Source of the DNA: Eledone cirrhosa
Lineage: Eukaryota
Length of the DNA: 64,000 bases
Assembly: GCA_964016885.1 (NCBI GenBank)
Contig: OZ024741.1
Location: 148,180,001 to 148,244,000 of the forward strand
Direction of reading: 5' to 3'
Positions 22,305 to 64,000 of the stretch are shown here, in pieces (within the stretch, counting starts at the first letter, position 1; each line of letters opens with the position of its first letter). A program made the position numbers and the translations under genes. The notes beneath the pieces are model-generated. The model was not told the DNA's origin and did not search any database. It was given only the letters and a program-made list of their open reading frames with translations.

Positions 22305-24308
22305 TTACCTTACTTCTCGTAGGGGAAGGACGGTTTTTCCATCCTTTTCACTGCTTGTGGCCTCTTCAGGAAGGATGTCCTTATAAATCCTCCTGGAGAG
22401 TGCTTGTCGGAAGTCTCCGATGTCTTTGGGGAATTTTTGTTTTAGTGTCATGTACGTTTTCTGTGTGATGCGAGTGATTTGTATGTGTGGAGGTGGTGTG
22501 AATTTTGGGGTTGTTGTGTAGTCTTTTTCTGTGATGCTGGTGTTGTGTTGGATGTAGTGTAATAATTGCTTGTTGTTCAAATTTAATGCTGTGTAGTGTG
22601 TATCGTTTTGGTTGTTTTGTTTTGTTTGCGTTTGTTGTGGGTTTGTTTCTGTTTCGCATTTTGGTGACTTTTGTGGTGTAGGTGATGGTGGTGTTGGGGT
22701 TAATGATGGTGATGGTGTTGGTGTTTGGGTTGATGGGGTTGGTGATGCTGGTGTGGATGGTGGCATATCTGTCCTAACTTTTTTGTTTCTTAATTTATTT
22801 GTTTCCCTCTGTATTTTGTTTTTGGAGGGGGAAGGAAGAGAATTTTTTCTTTTTAGTTTCTTTTTTTTTTTCCGGATATCATTTCCCACTCCTCGTCGTC
22901 ACAATCTGTCTTCAGTTGTGATAGGCCGGGGAGTGGAAAATCCTCCACAGGCATTAGTTTTGGTTGTGACGTGGTGGATGGTGTAGGCGCTGGTGCTAGT
23001 TCTGAAGCGTTGGGTGGTGATGGTGTTGGTTTTGCTGGTGGTGGTAGTGGTGTTGGTTTTGCTACTGTTGCTGGGGTTGTTGCTGTTATAGTTGCTTCTG
23101 TTGTTGCTGCTACAGTTGTTGCTGCCATCTCTGCTACTGGTGGTCTTGATGGTTGTGTCACTGGGGTGGGTAGGAGAAGTGGCCTCAACCTTTTAGCCTG
23201 AGGGCAGAAAGCCCTTAGGTGGGTTCCTTCACCACAAACGATACACCTAGGTCTTCTGCCCTCGACAATTACCGTGAGGTGGCTGCCGTCAGTGAGGTCT
23301 ATTACCTCTGGGATCTCCTCAATGCTTTTTTGGTCCGCTTGGATCAGGAGCTCCATCCCAGATCCGGACCAGTTCTCCTGCTTTTCTTTTGCTATTGCTG
23401 TTATTTTTGTGTTGGCTTCGATGCCGGCGAGGACGGCCGCTATTAGCCAGGGAATTTCGATGGCCGGTGGAACGTGGGTCACCCTGATCTTTACAAGTCT
23501 CTGGCCACAATAGCTTGGGACGAGTATGAAGTCATCACTTCTTAATGGGGCCATGGAGTGTTCTCTAGCCTCCTCTGGTGTTTCAAAGAACACGTCCACG
23601 GTTCCATACTTCTGCCCACATCTGATGTGGGTTTTTCTTGCCCACACATGTCCCAAAGCTTTTTGGATTTGGGACTTGGATGCCCGTTCCACTCGGCGCG
23701 ATTTTACATTTATTGTTCGATACGACACGGTGCATAGGCGCCGATGCTCCATTTTATTAGGTGGGGGGGGGGGGGGGGGTGAGGCTGACCCTGTACCCGT
23801 CTTTCTTTACCATTTGTTTGGCATTTTCTAAATCCCCCTGAGTTACCATAAATGCTTCGAACTGTTTTGCTACTCTGGCAAAACTGAGGATGGGTTTTAT
23901 AATGTCATTGTTGTTGTTGTTGCTATCGTTATTTGTGTTAATATTAATTTTAGTTTCAGTTGTGGTGGTGGTGACGTCAGTCGTCTTTGGTGGGGAAGAG
24001 TCCATTTTGCTTGATTTCATTTCGACATCACGAGTTAATTTATTTTTTTCTTCTTTTGTTTCTGTTGTCGCGGTGTTGGTGGGGGTGGTGGTTGTCGCGG
24101 TGGTGGTGGTGGTGGAGGCTTTAACCCCTGCAGTCATTGGTAATGGCGGGAAATGAATGTCTGCCTGAGACAAATTTAAAATATTGCTACTGCTTATATT
24201 TTTTGTAGTGTTGGCAAACGTAGTAACATTTACAATGGTGGTGTCGGTGTGAGGTGTTAATTTGTGAGGAAGGCTTTCAGCTGCTTGGTGCAGAGGTGAA
24301 TTAGCCAT
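22305..24308 (-). pseudogene. Tx1 ORF1 (T/P-rich, zinc knuckle), broken at homopolymer runs
   Basis: ATG at 24308 (MANSPLH); VEGRRPRCIVCGEGTHLRAFCP knuckle; frames shift at the G run ~23763-23779 and T run ~22861-22871. Confidence 0.75.
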
Positions 24309-34978: not shown

Positions 34979-35665
34979 TCTCAATAATAATAATAGTTTC
35001 AAATTTAGGTACAAAAACAGCAGTTTTGGGGGAAAAGGATTAGTCAATTAAAGCAACCTCAATCCTTGAGTGGTATCTGTTAGACACGCAATGACTAACA
35101 ACAGAATGTTTTAAGTCTGCGTGTCTGACATATATGTGTAGCTTGTGAATAAAAATTTCAAGGGGTTTCGTTGGCCGTGGTGTTCCCAGCCAAACATCTT
35201 TTGTAATGTATCGTCTTGTAGTAAGACGCCTTATGCCCCCCTGTCGGATAATGGACTAGACCTAGTTGTCTCCTCCTGGTTGAGAACACTATTTAAGTAA
35301 GCAGCAGTATTACTTTCCCAGACAGCCACAGGAAAGCAGACGGTATACACGCCAGAAAACAGCCTCTGTATCATGCCACAGAAAACAGCCAAGGGAACAG
35401 CAAACCCACACAATACTTTAGTAATTGTAATTCACCACAACTGACCGCGTCTATACTTGGTACATTCCATTTGTAATACAAATAAACATCACCATTATTT
35501 TACATTTGTCGAACATAACTCTCGTTGTGGTTATTTTCTTGATTACGCACACACCCACTCACTTTGTTATAATTCTCACAAACAAAATGGTAAATAGACG
35601 AGGGACCTTCCCTCACGTCTATGTCAACGAACAATCCAAATAGGATACCTCCAATTTACCACACC

Positions 35666-35714
35666 GGTGACCCCGACGTGATTTGAACACGTAGCCTTCT
35701 GATCTGGAGTCAGA
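35666..35714 (-). other. 49-nt copy of the tRNA-Trp(CCA) 3' region at the PBS
   Basis: Minus strand TCTGACTCCAGATCAGAAGGCTACGTGTTCAAATCACGTCGGGGTCACC: anticodon arm, T arm, acceptor 3' strand and CC(A). Confidence 0.88.
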
Positions 35715-35808
35715 TTATCTTGATTAGCGGACTTCCCCCTAATCTAGCAGATTCGGTCCAAGATCTAATTACAGACCCCTCCCCCCCTCTGACTTAACGT
35801 ATGAGTCT

Positions 35809-36381
35809 TTGAAAGGCGAGATTTTGAGAAGGAACTGTAAGTCGGTAGAGAGTCGTTTTCGGTCATTGATCGAGGACGAACGATTAGGTGACAGGACCCC
35901 TACCGCTTTTCTCCGGCATTTGCGGGATTTGAGCGATTCCCAAGATCAGGATAGCCCTTTCCTGAAGCAATTGTTCTTCTCTCGCCTACCTCAAGAGGTA
36001 CAGGCGATCCTAGCCCATATGCTAGAGGTAAATACCCTCGACCACATTGCTGTCTCTGCTGACAAAATTGTAGAAGTGACGAAGAGAGACACTTCGAAGC
36101 CAAAGTACGTTGCTTCTTCTTCTCTTCCTCAATCACGCTCATCAGCGAGTGATGAGAAATTAGTCATCACAATGGAAGCCATGACTTGTCAAATGGCGGA
36201 GTTGTGCCAGGAATTCAGGTCTTTTGGACGGCAGAGGAGCCGCTCACGAACTTATTCAACTCCTCGCCACCGTAGCCCTTCCAAAACACCAAAACCACCA
36301 TATTGTTATTACCATGAGAAATATGGTGACAAAGCCGCCCATTGTAGGCCTCCTTGTGCTTACGAGGGAAACGACGACTAG
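35809..36381 (+). pseudogene. Gypsy gag remnant (N-terminally deleted)
   Basis: LGDRTPTAFLRHLR, FFSRLPQEVQAIL, RSRS tract, CYYHEKYGDKAAHCRPPC. Confidence 0.85.
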
Positions 36382-37426
36382 AGTCACTAACGGTGGATAG
36401 TGCGCTCTGCGAAACCACATCCAACCGCCACTTTTCATTGAGGACCTGCTATCAGGTAGTCGGATAATGGACTAGACCTAGTTGTCTCCCCCTGGTTGAG
36501 AACACTATTTAAGTAAGCAGCAGTATTACTTTCCCAGACAGCCACAGGAAAGCAGACGGTATACACGCCAGAAAACAGCCTCTGTATCACGCCATAGAAA
36601 ACAGCCAACCCACACAATACTTTAGTAATTGTAATTCACCACAACTGACCGCGTCTATACTTGGTACATTCCATTTGTAATACAAATAAACATCACCATT
36701 ATTTTACATTTGTCGAACATAACTCTCGTTGTGGTTATTTTCTTGATTACGCACACACCCACTCACTTTGTTATAATTCTCACAAACAAAATGGTAAATA
36801 GACGAGGGACCTTCCCTCACGTCTATGTCAACGAACAATCCAAATAGGATACCTCCAATTTACCACAGTCTTATTGGCTAATCAACCAATGAGAGTAATT
36901 GTTGCTCAAAACCATCCGTCACTTTGTTTGCACATTTATTTATCGTTTCGCTTTCGAATCTTCCTCCTGTATTTCATCGTTTATCATCAAAATATTTTTC
37001 TCGTTTTGGTAAGTTATATTGTTAATTTATATATGATTTTTTAAATTTATATTAACTATTTTTTTTTCAGTTTGTTATAACATGCTTATAATATTGGTTG
37101 TATCATATTTACTTGTATATTTGTCCATATTATTGTTCATTTTATGTTAGATTATTTTATTATTATTATGTAAGATTATTTTTTTATTATTATGTTAGAC
37201 TATTTGTATGTAATATTTAATTTTTATTAATTCAACTATAACAATTATTATGTAAAATATATTTATTTAATATTGATTGTTTTTTGTAGTTGTTTATATT
37301 AAAAGTCTGAAAATATTTTTATACATCTTACAATAATATTTATAAGATCATTTATAAAATAACAATTATATAATCTAATTACATACAATGATAATTTATT
37401 ATTAGCGTTGCCTTAAAAAAATATTA

Positions 37427-59759: not shown

Positions 59760-62700
59760 TTGAACGGGAACAAAACAGAGAGGCAGTACGAACAAAGGTT
59801 TATTAGTTTCACGCTCTTGAGAGTGGGGTGGTGGTGGGGAACGACGTTTCGGGCATAAGCCCTTCTTCAGGTGAAAAGTGTGTGGGAAGAGAGTTCCAAG
59901 GGTGTGTAGGGGAGTGGTGGAGAGACATATAGAAAAAAGGGGGTGAGAGGAAACGGTGCAAATGAAATCAAAAATAAAGGCATGATCAAAATTAAATTAA
60001 AAATACACATGGAGTAAAACAGGTGGTGGAAGGGTGTGAGGCGTTTAGGGGTGGTGGAGGGTGGAGTGGGGAGAGGGAGACGGAGTGTCTGAGCGGGGAG
60101 GGCTGAAGGTGGTGTGTGTGTGTGTGTAGGTGTACGTGTGTGTGTGTGTGTGTATGTGAAAGCAAGGGTTGGGGGAAGAACGGGGTTGCATGTTCAGGAA
60201 GAGGTGTGTGTGGGGGGGGTGTAGGTCGGAGTGTGTGTGCGTGTGTGGATAGAGGGGTGGGGGGAGAGGATTCCGGAAGCTGAATGTGTAAATATGTGGT
60301 GGTACGCACGTGTGTGTGTGTGTGGTGTTTATGCGTGTTGTGGATGTAGGTGGCGTGTGGGGAAAAAAATGTTTGGGGTGTATGTCCGAGGGTGAGTCGT
60401 AAAGGTAATTCCGTAAAAGGATGTGGTGGAATGCTGAGTAAAATCCTTGGGATGCGGTAGATTCTCGGGATCAAGGTTCACATATGTGTAATCCGTGAAG
60501 AGATTGGTCGGAAGAGGGGAGATGTGGGGTCCGCGCGCAACAGGAAGTGGTCAGAGGGTCAAGGCAGGAGGAGGGTTGTGTGTCTGTGTGTGCGGGGAGG
60601 TGGTCAGAGAGGCATAGCAGCAGTAGGGTAGAATGGTAAGTGAAGAAAGTCGGTGTGTCAGTGTGTGCGGAGGTGCGGTGGACAGGGGAGAGGATGGGTA
60701 GGTGTGAAAGTTGGAGTGAGGAGGGGGGGTGTATTAGTAGAGGTGTTAGTGGGATGTGTGTGTGTTTGAGAAAGGGTGTGGGTGGAGCGGGGAGAGGAGG
60801 GTGTGGGGGCGATGGAGGGAGTGTAGTGTACTGGTGTGTGTGTGCGTTTTGGGATGAGTGTGTGTGTGTGGTGAAGGGGGTGTTAGTGGGTGTTAGTATA
60901 CTGGAGGTGGAGAGAGGGTTGAATGCGGGTGTGAGTGGGGGTCAGTGGTGGTAGGATGTGTAGAGTTGGTGGTGTAAGAGGGTGTGTGTGTTCGTGTGCG
61001 TAGGATTGGGGGGTGTTAGTGATATTAGTTGCGTGTAGAGTGGGTGTGTGTGTTCGTGTGCTTGGGGTCAGGGGGTGTTAGTGATGTTAGTTGCGGGGTA
61101 GTGGGGTGGATGTGTGGGGGTGAGGGTTAGTGGTGGTAGTAGGGTGTGTGTTTAGTGTGAGCGCGTGTATATATGTACCGGTGGGTGTGTGCGTGTGATA
61201 AGGAGGGGGAGAAGAAGGGAGGGATGTTAGTATGTTAGTTGGGGAAGGGTGGTCGGATGTGGGGTGGAGGTGTTAGTATTGTTAGTTGTGGGGTGGGCGG
61301 TGAAAAGGAGGGGTGTGTTAGTGGTGTTAGTGGGGGATATGTGTGGGGGGAGGGGGCGGTCGAAGGCTAAAGGAATAAGGGTGGGGAGTTCAGGCCGGGG
61401 AGAGTGTGGGTCTGTAGGGTGAAGATGGTTCGTTGTTCGACCCTGAGGAGAGTGGCGGGTGTTCCGTGGCATTGGAGTAGGCCACAGACTGTGAGGTGGT
61501 GTGCGGAATGTCCAGGGCCACCAAAGTGGCGGGCGATGGGGGAACTACCACCGAGACGAATATCTTGGAGGTGTTCAGTAAACCGGTCCGCCAGGCGACG
61601 TCCATTCTGTCCGACGTAAGTCGCGCTGCACTCCGTGCAGCGAAGTCCGTAGACTAGGTTGGAGGAGGTGCAGCGGAAGGCATGCCGGACAGAGAGAGAG
61701 TGGCCGTTGGGACCCTGGAAGGTGGTGGTGTTGGTGATGTGGGGACAGGTGTTGCAGCGGGGCCTAGAACAGGGAAAGGAACCGGGGGAGGAGAGCGTGG
61801 GTTGGGAGTAGGGAGCTATGGACGAGGAGGGTGCGGAGATTGCGTGCGCGTTGGAAGGAGGGGAGTGGTGGGGCTTGGAAGATGTGGGAGGTGGAGGGGT
61901 CGGACTGGAGGTGTCGGAAGATCCTGAGGAGTTGGGAGTAGGGAATAGAGTGTTTAGTGTGTGTGGGGTGGGAAGAAGTGAAGTCGAGGTAGGAGTGGGA
62001 GTCGGTGGGTTTGAAGAAGGCGGAGGTGACGAGGGAGTGGTGGGAGGGGTCGAAGGCGACGGAGATGTCTAAGAAGTGGACGTGGGTGGTGGAGATAGAG
62101 GTGGTGAAGTGGAGGGAGGAGTGGAAGGAGCAGAAGAAGGAGAGAAAGGAGTCGAGCTGTTCTCGGGTGAGGGTCGTGGCTCCGATACAGTCGTCGATGT
62201 AACGACCGTCCAGTTCGGGCGTGGGGCCGGTGTACTGGGCAAAGATTTGGGCCTCAACATGGCCAACAAAAAGGTTGGCATAGTTTGGGCCCATTCTTGT
62301 ACCTATGGCTACCCCCGTGACCTGTTGGTAAAACTCACCCGAGGAGAAACAGTTGAGGGTGAGGACCAGCTCGGCGAGGCGAAGGAGGGTGGGGGTGGAG
62401 GGGATGGGGAGGAGCGATGGTCGAGGTAGTGTTTGAGGGCACGTAGGCCGTCGGCGTGGGGGATGACGGTATAGAGGGACTTGATGTCTAGGGTGAAGAG
62501 GAAGGGCTGTGGGCCGGGTGGGTAGGTGAAGGAGTCGAAAAGGCGCAGGGCGTGGTTGGTGTCGGAGATGTGGGAGGGGAGGGTGGTGACAAGGGGCGCG
62601 AGGATCGAGTCAAGAAAGGCGGAGATGAGTTCGGTGGGGCAGTTGCAAGCGGAGACGATGGGGCGGCCGGGGTTGTCGGGTTTGGGGAGTTTGGGGAGGA

Positions 62701-63053
62701 AGTAGATGGTGGGGGTGCGGGGGGTGCGGACGATGAGGTGGGAAGTGGTGGTGGGGGGGGGAGTCAAGGTGTTGGATGGTGGAGGAAACTTGTTGTTGGT
62801 AGAGGGGTGTGGGATCGGAGGGTAGAGGGCGGTAGAAGAGGGGTTACGGAGCTGCCTGAGGGCTTCGGCCGTGTAGAGGTCCGCACGCCACACCACCACG
62901 GCGCCTCCCTTGTCCGCCGGTTCGATGACGATGTCATCTCGGCTACGGAGGGAGCGGAGAGCGAGGAGTTCGCCCCGTGTGATGTTATTCCGTTTGGAAC
63001 GGTGGCGGAAGTCGAAACGATTTACGGCGCTACGGCTGGCATCGACGAACGCG
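59760..63053 (-). mobile_element. Second Neptune-type Penelope-like element, decayed
   Basis: ADKGGAVV, YFLPK, GRPIVS, LDIKSLYT, MGPNYANLF, RYIDD, KPTDSHSYL; NLVYGLRC..TYVGQ GIY-YIG near 61600-61670; abuts (TA)n/(CA)n. Confidence 0.88.
59842..59871 (-). ncRNA. Minimal hammerhead ribozyme core of the Penelope pLTR
   Basis: CCTGAAGA-A-GGGC-TTAT-GCCC-GAAAC-GTCG on the minus strand. Confidence 0.7.
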
Positions 63054-63120
63054 TATATATATATATATACATAGATAGATACACACACACACACACACAC
63101 ATACACGCGCGCGCGCGCAC

Positions 63121-63208
<88 letters not shown>

Positions 63209-63210
63209 AC
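63054..63210. repeat. Compound (TA)n/(CA)n microsatellite
   Basis: Directly visible. Confidence 0.95.
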
Positions 63211-63324
63211 AAACTTGTGTGTGTGTCTGTGTGTGCCTTGTTTTGGGTACAGAAAGAATTTTGACTCCAGTTTTTATAGCCGGGTCAAATGCCACTGCTC
63301 TTTTCAACAACGTCAAATAACAAC

Positions 63325-63360
<36 letters not shown>

Positions 63361-63484
63361 CGATCTTTATGCTGAAATTTTATAGTTTTAAGCAGACAGT
63401 ATTATTGATTTAGGTGTCATAGAAACCCTGCATTTGGATTTTACCATCAATTCCACTTGGGTCCAGGTCTGTTTATATCATTTA

Positions 63485-64000
63485 CTAGCATTAAAGCCCG
63501 GCGTTTCTCGGGGTCATTAAGTTACCAAAGTTAGGTTGCACCACCCATTTTATGGCACCACTTTTTTGTCTGCCAGGCACTGGGTGAATGAATTGCAGAC
63601 CTGGAAGCAGGAGCTGCGCCAGCAGTGACAATTGTAGTTTCGCCTATGGATATTATCTCTGTGCAAAAAAGTGTTGAAATTTATTGTTTCACAGTACTTG
63701 CGCAACACGCGCGTGGACGATGCCAGCCGAACAACAGAGCTGCGATGGAGTTGTTCTGCATGGTTGTCTGTGTGTTTTCTAAATTTAAGACAGTAGGGAG
63801 GGTTGTGATATGAGAGGGAGTTAGCTGTTGTTTCTAGCAGGTTTAGTGACCTCATAAAGGATATGTGTTTTCTAAATTTAAGACAGTAGGGAGTGGTGTG
63901 ATATGGGGGAGAGTTAGCTGCTGTTTCTAGCAGGTTTAGTGACCTCATAGAAGATATGTTTTCTAAATTTAAGACAGTAGGGATGGGTGTGATATGGGGG
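63485..64000 (-). mobile_element. Helitron-like element with 93-bp array, second copy (runs off the window)
   Basis: Nearly identical to 9426-10030; hairpin CCCGAGAAACGCCGGG and CTAG terminus on minus. Confidence 0.75.

What the first reader, a model, noticed from the sequence alone, without database searches (positions are those of the whole stretch)
35664..35720. Gypsy PBS extended to 49 nt of tRNA-Trp, ending at tRNA position 27
Seen: after the 5' LTR, complementarity to tRNA-Trp(CCA) runs through the T arm and the whole anticodon arm, stops at TCTGAC (position 27) and joins directly to mid-gag; the leader and gag start are missing. Knowledge: plus-strand synthesis normally stops at m1A58, giving an ~18-nt PBS, and G26 is commonly m2,2G, an RT block. 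Inference: a fossil read-through of a hypomodified primer tRNA that arrested at G26 and jumped into gag, recording tRNA modification state in the genome.
Basis: partly seen in the sequence, partly recalled or inferred. Interest (0 to 1): 0.7.

Follow-up and report, generated by a model that had tools for sequence, protein, structure and literature searches.

The report
Retrotransposon fossils map tRNA methylation stops
A broken jumping-gene copy carries a 50-base DNA copy of the tRNA that primes it, joined into its gag gene; it is one of 32 such long over-copies found in this genome, whose ends pile up near two tRNA positions that are methylated in flies and humans, so together they likely record where the host tRNA is modified.

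Summary
Observation confirmed. A 1.65-kb CsRn1-type Gypsy copy (35217-36867, target duplication GTCT) has, after its 5' LTR, 50 bases complementary to mature tRNA-Trp (48/50), ending at position 27, then 3 filler bases and gag codon ~37 of 258 (early gag, not mid-gag). None of 19 family copies has a long PBS. Genome-wide, 38 sites (32 events) copy the tRNA to about position 44 or beyond. Of the 30 events ending at or below 42, 20 end at 35-40, 7 at 27-29, none at 30-34, one near 8. Position 58 is miscopied in 9 of 32 events, so read-through is often bypass of a likely m1A58, not only a hypomodified primer. Fly and human tRNA-Trp carry m1A58, m1G37, m2,2G26 and m1G9. A stop at m2,2G26 is likely but not unique: a cDNA anticodon hairpin also completes at 27, and a 7/8 match lies 14 nt from the landing. 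The mechanism is published for HIV-1 proviruses (PMC12657518), and this scan found the class before, in this genome (e1-10321918) and in others. What I can add is the 27-29 cluster and the empty gap in this genome.

The parts
35213..35216 (+). left target-site duplication GTCT
   Evidence: contigs of public runs show this flank sequence with a single GTCT and no element
35217..35663 (+). 5' LTR, 447 nt, TG...CA
   Evidence: aligns to both LTRs of full-length copies
35664..35664 (+). 1-nt spacer between LTR and PBS, as in the family
35665..35667 (+). complement of the tRNA CCA end, first base mismatched
35668..35714 (+). copy of tRNA-Trp(CCA) positions 73 to 27, A57 isodecoder, 46/47. Position 58 (35683) and position 37 (35704) are copied correctly; position 49 (35692) is mismatched
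   Evidence: no gene with the 49 variant over 35685-35714
35715..35717 (+). 3-nt filler TTA; its first base stands opposite G26
   Evidence: T here equals the commonest m2,2G26 misreading of fly and human tRNA-Trp by TGIRT, but one base is weak evidence
35718..36381 (+). gag from codon ~37 to its stop, with a frameshift in a C run near 35780; CHCC motif CX2HX9CX3C at 36304-36357
36382..36458 (+). start of the protease region, cut just before the DTG motif
36459..36867 (+). 3' LTR lacking its first 26 nt; 3 substitutions and one 12-nt gap against the 5' LTR in 421 columns
36868..36871 (+). right target-site duplication GTCT

Best explanation
This is an integrated, doubly deleted CsRn1-type Gypsy copy whose primer-binding site is replaced by a 50-base copy of tRNA-Trp; it likely arose when plus-strand synthesis ran past position 58 and position 37 of the primer tRNA, likely stalled before dimethylated G26, and then jumped to early gag instead of the PBS. 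Shown: the anatomy, the match to host genes, the short PBS of the family, the recurrence of such copies, the clustering of their ends, and the position-specific errors at 58. Inferred: that RT copied RNA in this one copy; that the host's tRNA-Trp carries the modifications mapped in fly and human; that the stop is chemical; that 0-2 bases are trimmed or left unpaired at the jump, which gives ends at 27-29. Odds by step: over-extension plus ectopic transfer about 0.9; methylated G26 as the main cause of the stop about 0.55.
For: Family PBS is short: of 29 gag-bearing loci, 19 had an alignable LTR end, 18 with the native short PBS and 1 with a 15-nt tRNA match, none long. 410 exact 18-nt Trp PBS sites exist; 141 continue to position 51 (44 with T at 58; 97 without); 38 reach about 44 or beyond, merging to 32 events. 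Ends: 20 of 30 at 35-40 (null 12.5, P=0.005), 7 at 27-29 (null 1.8, P=0.0016), 0 at 30-34 (P=0.004). The seven 27-29 events land on different acceptors: gag, own LTR reversed, leader reversed, LTR-side sequence of another copy, own strand, and two not placed at the joint. Position 58 is wrong in 9 of 32 events with all three wrong bases (P=2e-5 against 5%). In the 34-row table the other unfreed positions 76-42 have at most 2 mismatches, except 47 with 4, three of which fit a U47 isodecoder. Position 37 is wrong in 2 of the 8 events that pass it and run on. One copy runs to about position 8-9 with a wrong base at 26 (L245). Fly and human Trp-CCA show signatures at 9, 26, 37 and 58; fly misincorporation is 0.996 at 26, 0.53 at 37, 0.87 at 58. 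HIV-1 proviruses with 7-54-nt primer inserts at deletion junctions are published.
Against: Only 2 of 30 events end exactly at 27 (P=0.09), and one of them is a fold-back whose hairpin itself selects 27. Look-elsewhere P for a 3-nt window is 0.08. The 35-40 cluster straddles 37: 8 of its 20 events copy 37 correctly, which a clean m1G37 block does not predict. The wrong bases at 58 (G 4, A 3, C 2) do not follow the strongly A-biased TGIRT spectrum for most fly and human Trp-CCA. L245 has 5 other mismatches to the reference gene, so its error at 26 is weak. This copy has no error at 58 or 37, so alone it cannot be told from a DNA-templated copy. Background mismatch rates are biased low by the one-mismatch filter. 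No tRNA sequencing of the host was available. An LTR end upstream was confirmed against short-PBS copies for only 20 of 38 sites.
Confidence: 0.58

Rival explanations
1. The read-through is the same, but the stop is structural. Once positions 31-27 are copied, the new DNA can fold into an anticodon-arm hairpin that peels its end off the tRNA, just as RT meets the D stem. Ends at 27-29 would then arise without any modification.
For: The copied strand folds with its last bases paired in that hairpin (-7.6 kcal/mol, z -2.4 for 50 nt). L243 is a fold-back primed from this hairpin; L187 and L188 look like fold-backs at the T arm. Ends near completion of the T stem (45-52) are also common. The position-49 change, seen in 5 of 34 rows including this copy, perfects the T-arm hairpin in DNA.
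Against: The anticodon hairpin alone is weak (-2.3 kcal/mol, z -0.9). Ends at 28-29 (5 of the 7) precede full hairpin formation. It does not explain the 35-40 cluster or the errors at 58 and 37.
Confidence: 0.25
2. The end is set by the landing site. A longer or ragged over-copy paired with gag through its last 8 bases and was trimmed there, then slipped 14 nt and left 3 filler bases, so this copy's end does not mark the RT stop.
For: The only 7-of-8-or-better match to the copy's last 8 bases in the 4.8-kb interior lies 14 nt upstream of the resumption point in 2 of 3 full-length copies; the third has a variant there. Short matches occur at other landings (L133, L079, L249, L076).
Against: With 10- or 12-base ends that site no longer stands out. 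The product is not a clean join at the match. Six other events end at 27-29 on other acceptors.
Confidence: 0.1
3. A DNA-level event: break repair that switched from the PBS to one of the tRNA-Trp genes and back into gag, or a later deletion that shortened a longer tRNA copy.
For: The genome has about 60 exact gene-like matches. The element's own PBS already supplies the CCA complement. This copy has no error at 58 or 37. The element has a second, near-blunt deletion with no tRNA at the joint.
Against: It predicts neither errors focused on 58 nor clustered ends. None of the 38 sites runs through the whole gene into its flank. The LTRs differ by only 3 substitutions, so there was little time for later changes.
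Confidence: 0.06
4. The family simply has a long PBS, or the stretch is an assembly artefact.
For: Three other lineages do propagate long PBSs, ending at 48, 45 and 37.
Against: 0 of 19 copies of this family have it. Intact TSD, correct spacer and LTR ends, and 31 other events argue against an artefact.
Confidence: 0.01

Closest known systems
Delayed (aberrant) second-strand transfer of HIV-1, with tRNA-Lys3 inserts (Hardy et al. 2025, PMC12657518; abstract and passages of Results section 11 and Discussion read)
   Same: Integrated defective copy; primer tRNA copied past position 58 and defining the deletion junction. 44 cases, inserts of 7-54 nt, 5 of 44 with a change at 58.
   Different: Somatic HIV proviruses against inherited Gypsy copies of many LTR types. 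In the passages read, the authors take read-through as non-recognition of m1A58 and do not map ends to positions 37 or 26. Here ends cluster at 35-40 and 27-29, and some over-copies were propagated.
Minor plus-strand strong-stop products P1-P5 and the primer over-extension sequence of lentiviruses (review PMC13191261, passages of section 10; PMC8599865, passages)
   Same: Stops at 58, 55/54 and 37, and full copying of unmodified tRNA. This family's leader carries a 10-nt box complementary to tRNA 52-43 on which an over-copy re-annealed (L249).
   Different: Those products come from in vitro or cell work, and long ones are described as unable to complete transfer. No stop at 26 is listed in the passages read.
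CsRn1 clade of Ty3/Gypsy elements (PwRn1, AgCR; PMC2582038, passages)
   Same: tRNA-Trp PBS, CHCC Gag motif, DTG protease, 4-bp TSD, PR-RT-RH-IN order.
   Different: This copy is a non-autonomous double deletion with an over-copied primer. No RT phylogeny was run.
Dead-end plus-strand strong-stop DNA of yeast Ty1/Ty3 (PMC5371799, section 2.2 read)
   Same: The tRNA-copied PBS is usually not inherited: 18 of 19 family copies keep a PBS that differs from the tRNA.
   Different: Ty3 stops after 12 nt and the product is a dead end; here long products were integrated.
Helenus/Ajax TRIMs (PMC10886601, passages)
   Same: tRNA-like sequence in a non-autonomous LTR element.
   Different: There it lies inside the LTR as a putative pol III promoter, likely from a SINE. 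Here it is the antisense primer copy at the PBS.

Membership tests
CsRn1-clade Ty3/Gypsy | tRNA-Trp primer-binding site | tested here: met
   feature
CsRn1-clade Ty3/Gypsy | Gag CX2HX9CX3C (CHCC) motif | tested here: met
   36304-36357
CsRn1-clade Ty3/Gypsy | 4-bp TSD and TG...CA LTRs | tested here: met
CsRn1-clade Ty3/Gypsy | DT/SG protease, then RT, RNase H, integrase | tested here: met
   in full-length family copies L125 and L127; deleted in the window copy
CsRn1-clade Ty3/Gypsy | RT phylogeny groups with CsRn1 | not tested
   no reference RT sequences fetched
Delayed second-strand transfer product | LTR, PBS, then further primer-tRNA complement past 58 defining a deletion junction | tested here: met
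Delayed second-strand transfer product | related elements lack the extension | tested here: met
   0 of 19
Delayed second-strand transfer product | template was RNA (modification-type errors) | tested here: inconclusive
   met for the class (9 of 32 wrong at 58); this copy has no error at 58 or 37
Modification-induced RT stop at m2,2G26 | host tRNA-Trp has G26 and it is dimethylated | not testable with these tools
   G26 is present in the genes; dimethylation is shown only for fly, human and S. pombe
Modification-induced RT stop at m2,2G26 | ends enriched just 3' of 26 | tested here: inconclusive
   27-29: 7 of 30, P=0.0016; 27 alone: 2 of 30, P=0.09; look-elsewhere 0.08; confounded by the hairpin
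Helenus-type TRIM | tRNA-like promoter inside both LTRs | tested here: not met
   the only Rfam hit in 35000-37000 is at the PBS, on the minus strand

The most novel reading that the evidence does not exclude
This genome holds a readable, multi-site map of germ-line tRNA-Trp methylation written by Gypsy RT: errors at m1A58 and m1G37, stops at m1G37 and m2,2G26, and one copy that misreads 26 and ends near m1G9. Over-copying is common enough that several lineages turned it into their inherited primer site, and this family's leader keeps a 10-nt rescue box for over-copied ends. Assemblies could then give tRNA modification maps, by isodecoder, for animals with no tRNA sequencing.
Probability: 0.45. 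Interest if true: 0.65.

Novelty: new variant of a known kind. Interest (0 to 1): 0.42.

Why it matters
The single copy is a replication accident of a kind already published for HIV-1. Its value is as one point in a distribution. If the stops and errors are chemical, LTR fossils report which tRNA positions were modified in the cells where transposition happened, which isodecoders primed, and how often RT bypassed each mark. That can be tested against tRNA sequencing. It also shows that long over-copies are integrated and sometimes inherited in retrotransposons.

Tried and rejected
Hypermutable CAG/CTG as the cause of the position-49 change and the TTA filler: rejected (transition rates CAG 0.5%, CTG 1.9%, CHH 1.7%, CG 3.0% over 28 copies). 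An A49 isodecoder: no exact match outside the window over 30 nt. Reading the 97 non-T copies at 58 as 97 events: rejected; about 28 of the first 30 loci are one propagated lineage, and the other 67 were only partly fetched. Position 57 as an error: rejected; both A57 and G57 genes exist. Read check: no RNA holder listed. Contigs of 4 runs (2 samples, 1 study) did not cover 35642-35711, which proves nothing. One contig crossed the 3' joint with only 30 bases on its short side. Pfam found no family for the window's gag part; a full gag gave DUF7041. ARAGORN found no tRNA gene in the window. Ten paper searches listed no paper on modification-mapped endpoints in genomic LTR elements, but they also missed Hardy 2025, so absence from print is not shown. 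Pulsinelli and Temin 1991 (recalled) and Wu 1999 were not held. PMC11770116 (passages), PMC4787781 (passages) and PMC10986323 (abstract) gave background only. PMC5066629 gave passages and one supplement passage listing m1A, m22G and m1G for Trp; one of its files could not be searched.

Full report
1. Observation. The window lies at G000:C2:148180001-148244000 of a 3.0-Gb genome. Direct repeats at 35243-35663 and 36459-36867 are two LTRs. The 5' LTR runs 35217-35663 (TG...CA), and GTCT flanks the element on both sides. After a 1-nt spacer, 35665-35714 is complementary to mature tRNA-Trp(CCA). 46 of 47 bases match the genome's own genes, positions 73 to 27, and the three bases copying CCA have one mismatch. 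The genes continue with C (G26); the window has TTA, then gag from 35718. In four family copies the distance from LTR end to this point is 759-805 nt, of which 650-696 is leader. The join is at codon ~37 of 258. A second, near-blunt deletion joins the protease start to base 27 of the 3' LTR. The LTRs differ by 3 substitutions and one 12-nt gap, so the copy is young.

2. Family. Gag has the CX2HX9CX3C motif. Full-length relatives of about 5.8 kb have a DTG protease, RT, RNase H and integrase. With the Trp primer and 4-bp TSD these are the CsRn1-clade features of PMC2582038 (passages); no tree was built. Of 29 other gag-bearing loci, 19 had an alignable LTR end: 18 carry a native PBS two bases shorter than the tRNA complement, 1 a 15-nt match, none a long one. 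The long match is private to this copy. Keeping a non-tRNA PBS parallels Ty1/Ty3, where the tRNA-copied PBS is not inherited (PMC5371799 section 2.2).

3. The class. The genome has 410 exact 18-nt Trp primer sites. In all 81 on contig 1, 39 end at 57-59 and the rest run further. 44 sites continue exactly to position 51 and 97 do so with a non-T base at 58. Most of the 97 appear to be one propagated lineage (about 28 of the first 30 loci), so I counted events. All 38 sites reaching about 44 with at most one other mismatch were fetched and merged into 34 rows, then 32 events after stricter merging. Two events ending at 43-44 were left out of the end test because the search pattern censors them. 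Of the other 30: 42 and 41 one each; 40 x4, 39 x3, 38 x5, 37 x2, 36 x3, 35 x3; none at 34-30; 29 x3, 28 x2, 27 x2; one near 8-9. Against a constant drop-off, 35-40 has P=0.005, 27-29 P=0.0016, the empty 30-34 P=0.004, 27 alone P=0.09, and any 3-nt window P=0.08. An upstream LTR end shared with short-PBS copies was shown for 20 of 38 sites against a 76-sequence library; the rest were not confirmed.

4. Errors. Position 58 is wrong in 9 of 32 events (G 4, A 3, C 2). Other unfreed positions from 76 to 42 had 0-2 mismatches in 34 rows, except 47 with 4, where a U47 isodecoder exists. The filter lowers this background, but 9 of 32 exceeds even 5% (P=2e-5). Position 37 is wrong in 2 of the 8 events that run past 35. 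L245 is wrong at 26 and ends near 9, but it has 5 other mismatches. In mim-tRNAseq tables (PMC8062790, supplement rows), fly and human Trp-CCA have signatures at exactly 9, 26, 37 and 58, assigned to m1G, m2,2G, m1G and m1A. m2,2G26 is read mostly as A, which is the T found at 35715. The spectrum at 58 here is less A-biased than with TGIRT. So the primer was often modified at 58 and bypassed. This copy, correct at 58 and 37, may come from a partly unmodified tRNA or from correct bypass; it cannot tell which.

5. Mechanism. Likely order: plus-strand synthesis from the PPT copies the LTR and the attached primer, passes 58 and 37, and stalls near 26. The long end no longer fits the PBS or the 10-nt box in the leader (on which L249, ending at 40, did re-anneal). 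It transfers to the minus strand in early gag, possibly guided by the only 7/8 match in the interior, 14 nt upstream. A further jump or later deletion removes pol and the PPT. The intact 5' LTR start and TSD show integrase-type insertion. Rivals for the stop: the cDNA anticodon hairpin, which completes at 27 and primed the fold-back L243; an end fixed by the landing match; a DNA-level event. The spread of acceptors argues for a cause in the tRNA, but does not separate chemistry from structure.

6. Known work. Hardy et al. 2025 (PMC12657518, abstract and passages) describe this architecture in 44 defective HIV-1 proviruses, 5 with a change at 58. Stops at 58, 55/54 and 37 are reviewed in PMC13191261 (passages) and PMC8599865 (passages). 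Its supplements and Fig. 5b, which I did not see, may show insert ends. The scan has reported the class on other DNA in this genome (e1-10321918, e1-9536341) and in several other genomes; these are unreviewed notes and are not used as support.

7. Verdict. A real feature, a germ-line retrotransposon variant of a known error. The count-based case for a multi-site modification record is suggestive and directly testable. Interest 0.42.

Noticed in passing
family leaders, e.g. L122, L123, L125, L127 just after the 5' LTR: The native PBS is 2 nt shorter than the tRNA complement and is followed 9 nt later by a 10-nt box complementary to tRNA positions 52-43 (chance about 1e-5), repeated in some copies. 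It resembles a primer activation or over-extension sequence, or a decayed old over-copy. L249 re-annealed on it.
   Followed up: partly
L061, L063-L066, L073, L074, L077, L081, L084, L089, L096, L099, L100, L103, L105, L107, L108: A propagated lineage with a 29-nt PBS ending near position 48, a very short leader, and gag and/or pol matches downstream in most copies.
   Followed up: partly
   Followed up: partly
L083, L102, L104, L239, L242: A lineage with a 40-nt PBS ending at 37-38, gag matched downstream in four of five; base 58 differs between copies (T, T, T, A, A), which suggests re-copying of the tRNA in later rounds.
   Followed up: partly
L243; L187, L188: Fold-back insertions apparently self-primed from the anticodon-arm or T-arm hairpin of the tRNA copy.
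   Followed up: partly
window 35692 and 4 other events: A recurrent C-to-T change at tRNA position 49 that perfects the T-arm hairpin in DNA; no such gene found; unexplained.
   Followed up: partly
G000:C4:353.40-353.49 Mb: A tandem array of over 40 tRNA-Trp genes, mostly the A57 form; G57 and U47 forms also occur.
   Followed up: partly
G000:C14:21.37-21.46 Mb: 13 matches to the long-PBS pattern, mostly about 5.7 kb apart: likely a tandem array of one element.
   Followed up: no
window 22600-24120: G/T-rich 9-nt periodic repeats, likely a Pro/Thr-rich coding stretch on the minus strand.
   Followed up: no
window 60001-64000: Very strong GC skew (0.68, 0.31) with high GC; likely a G-rich satellite.
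   Followed up: no
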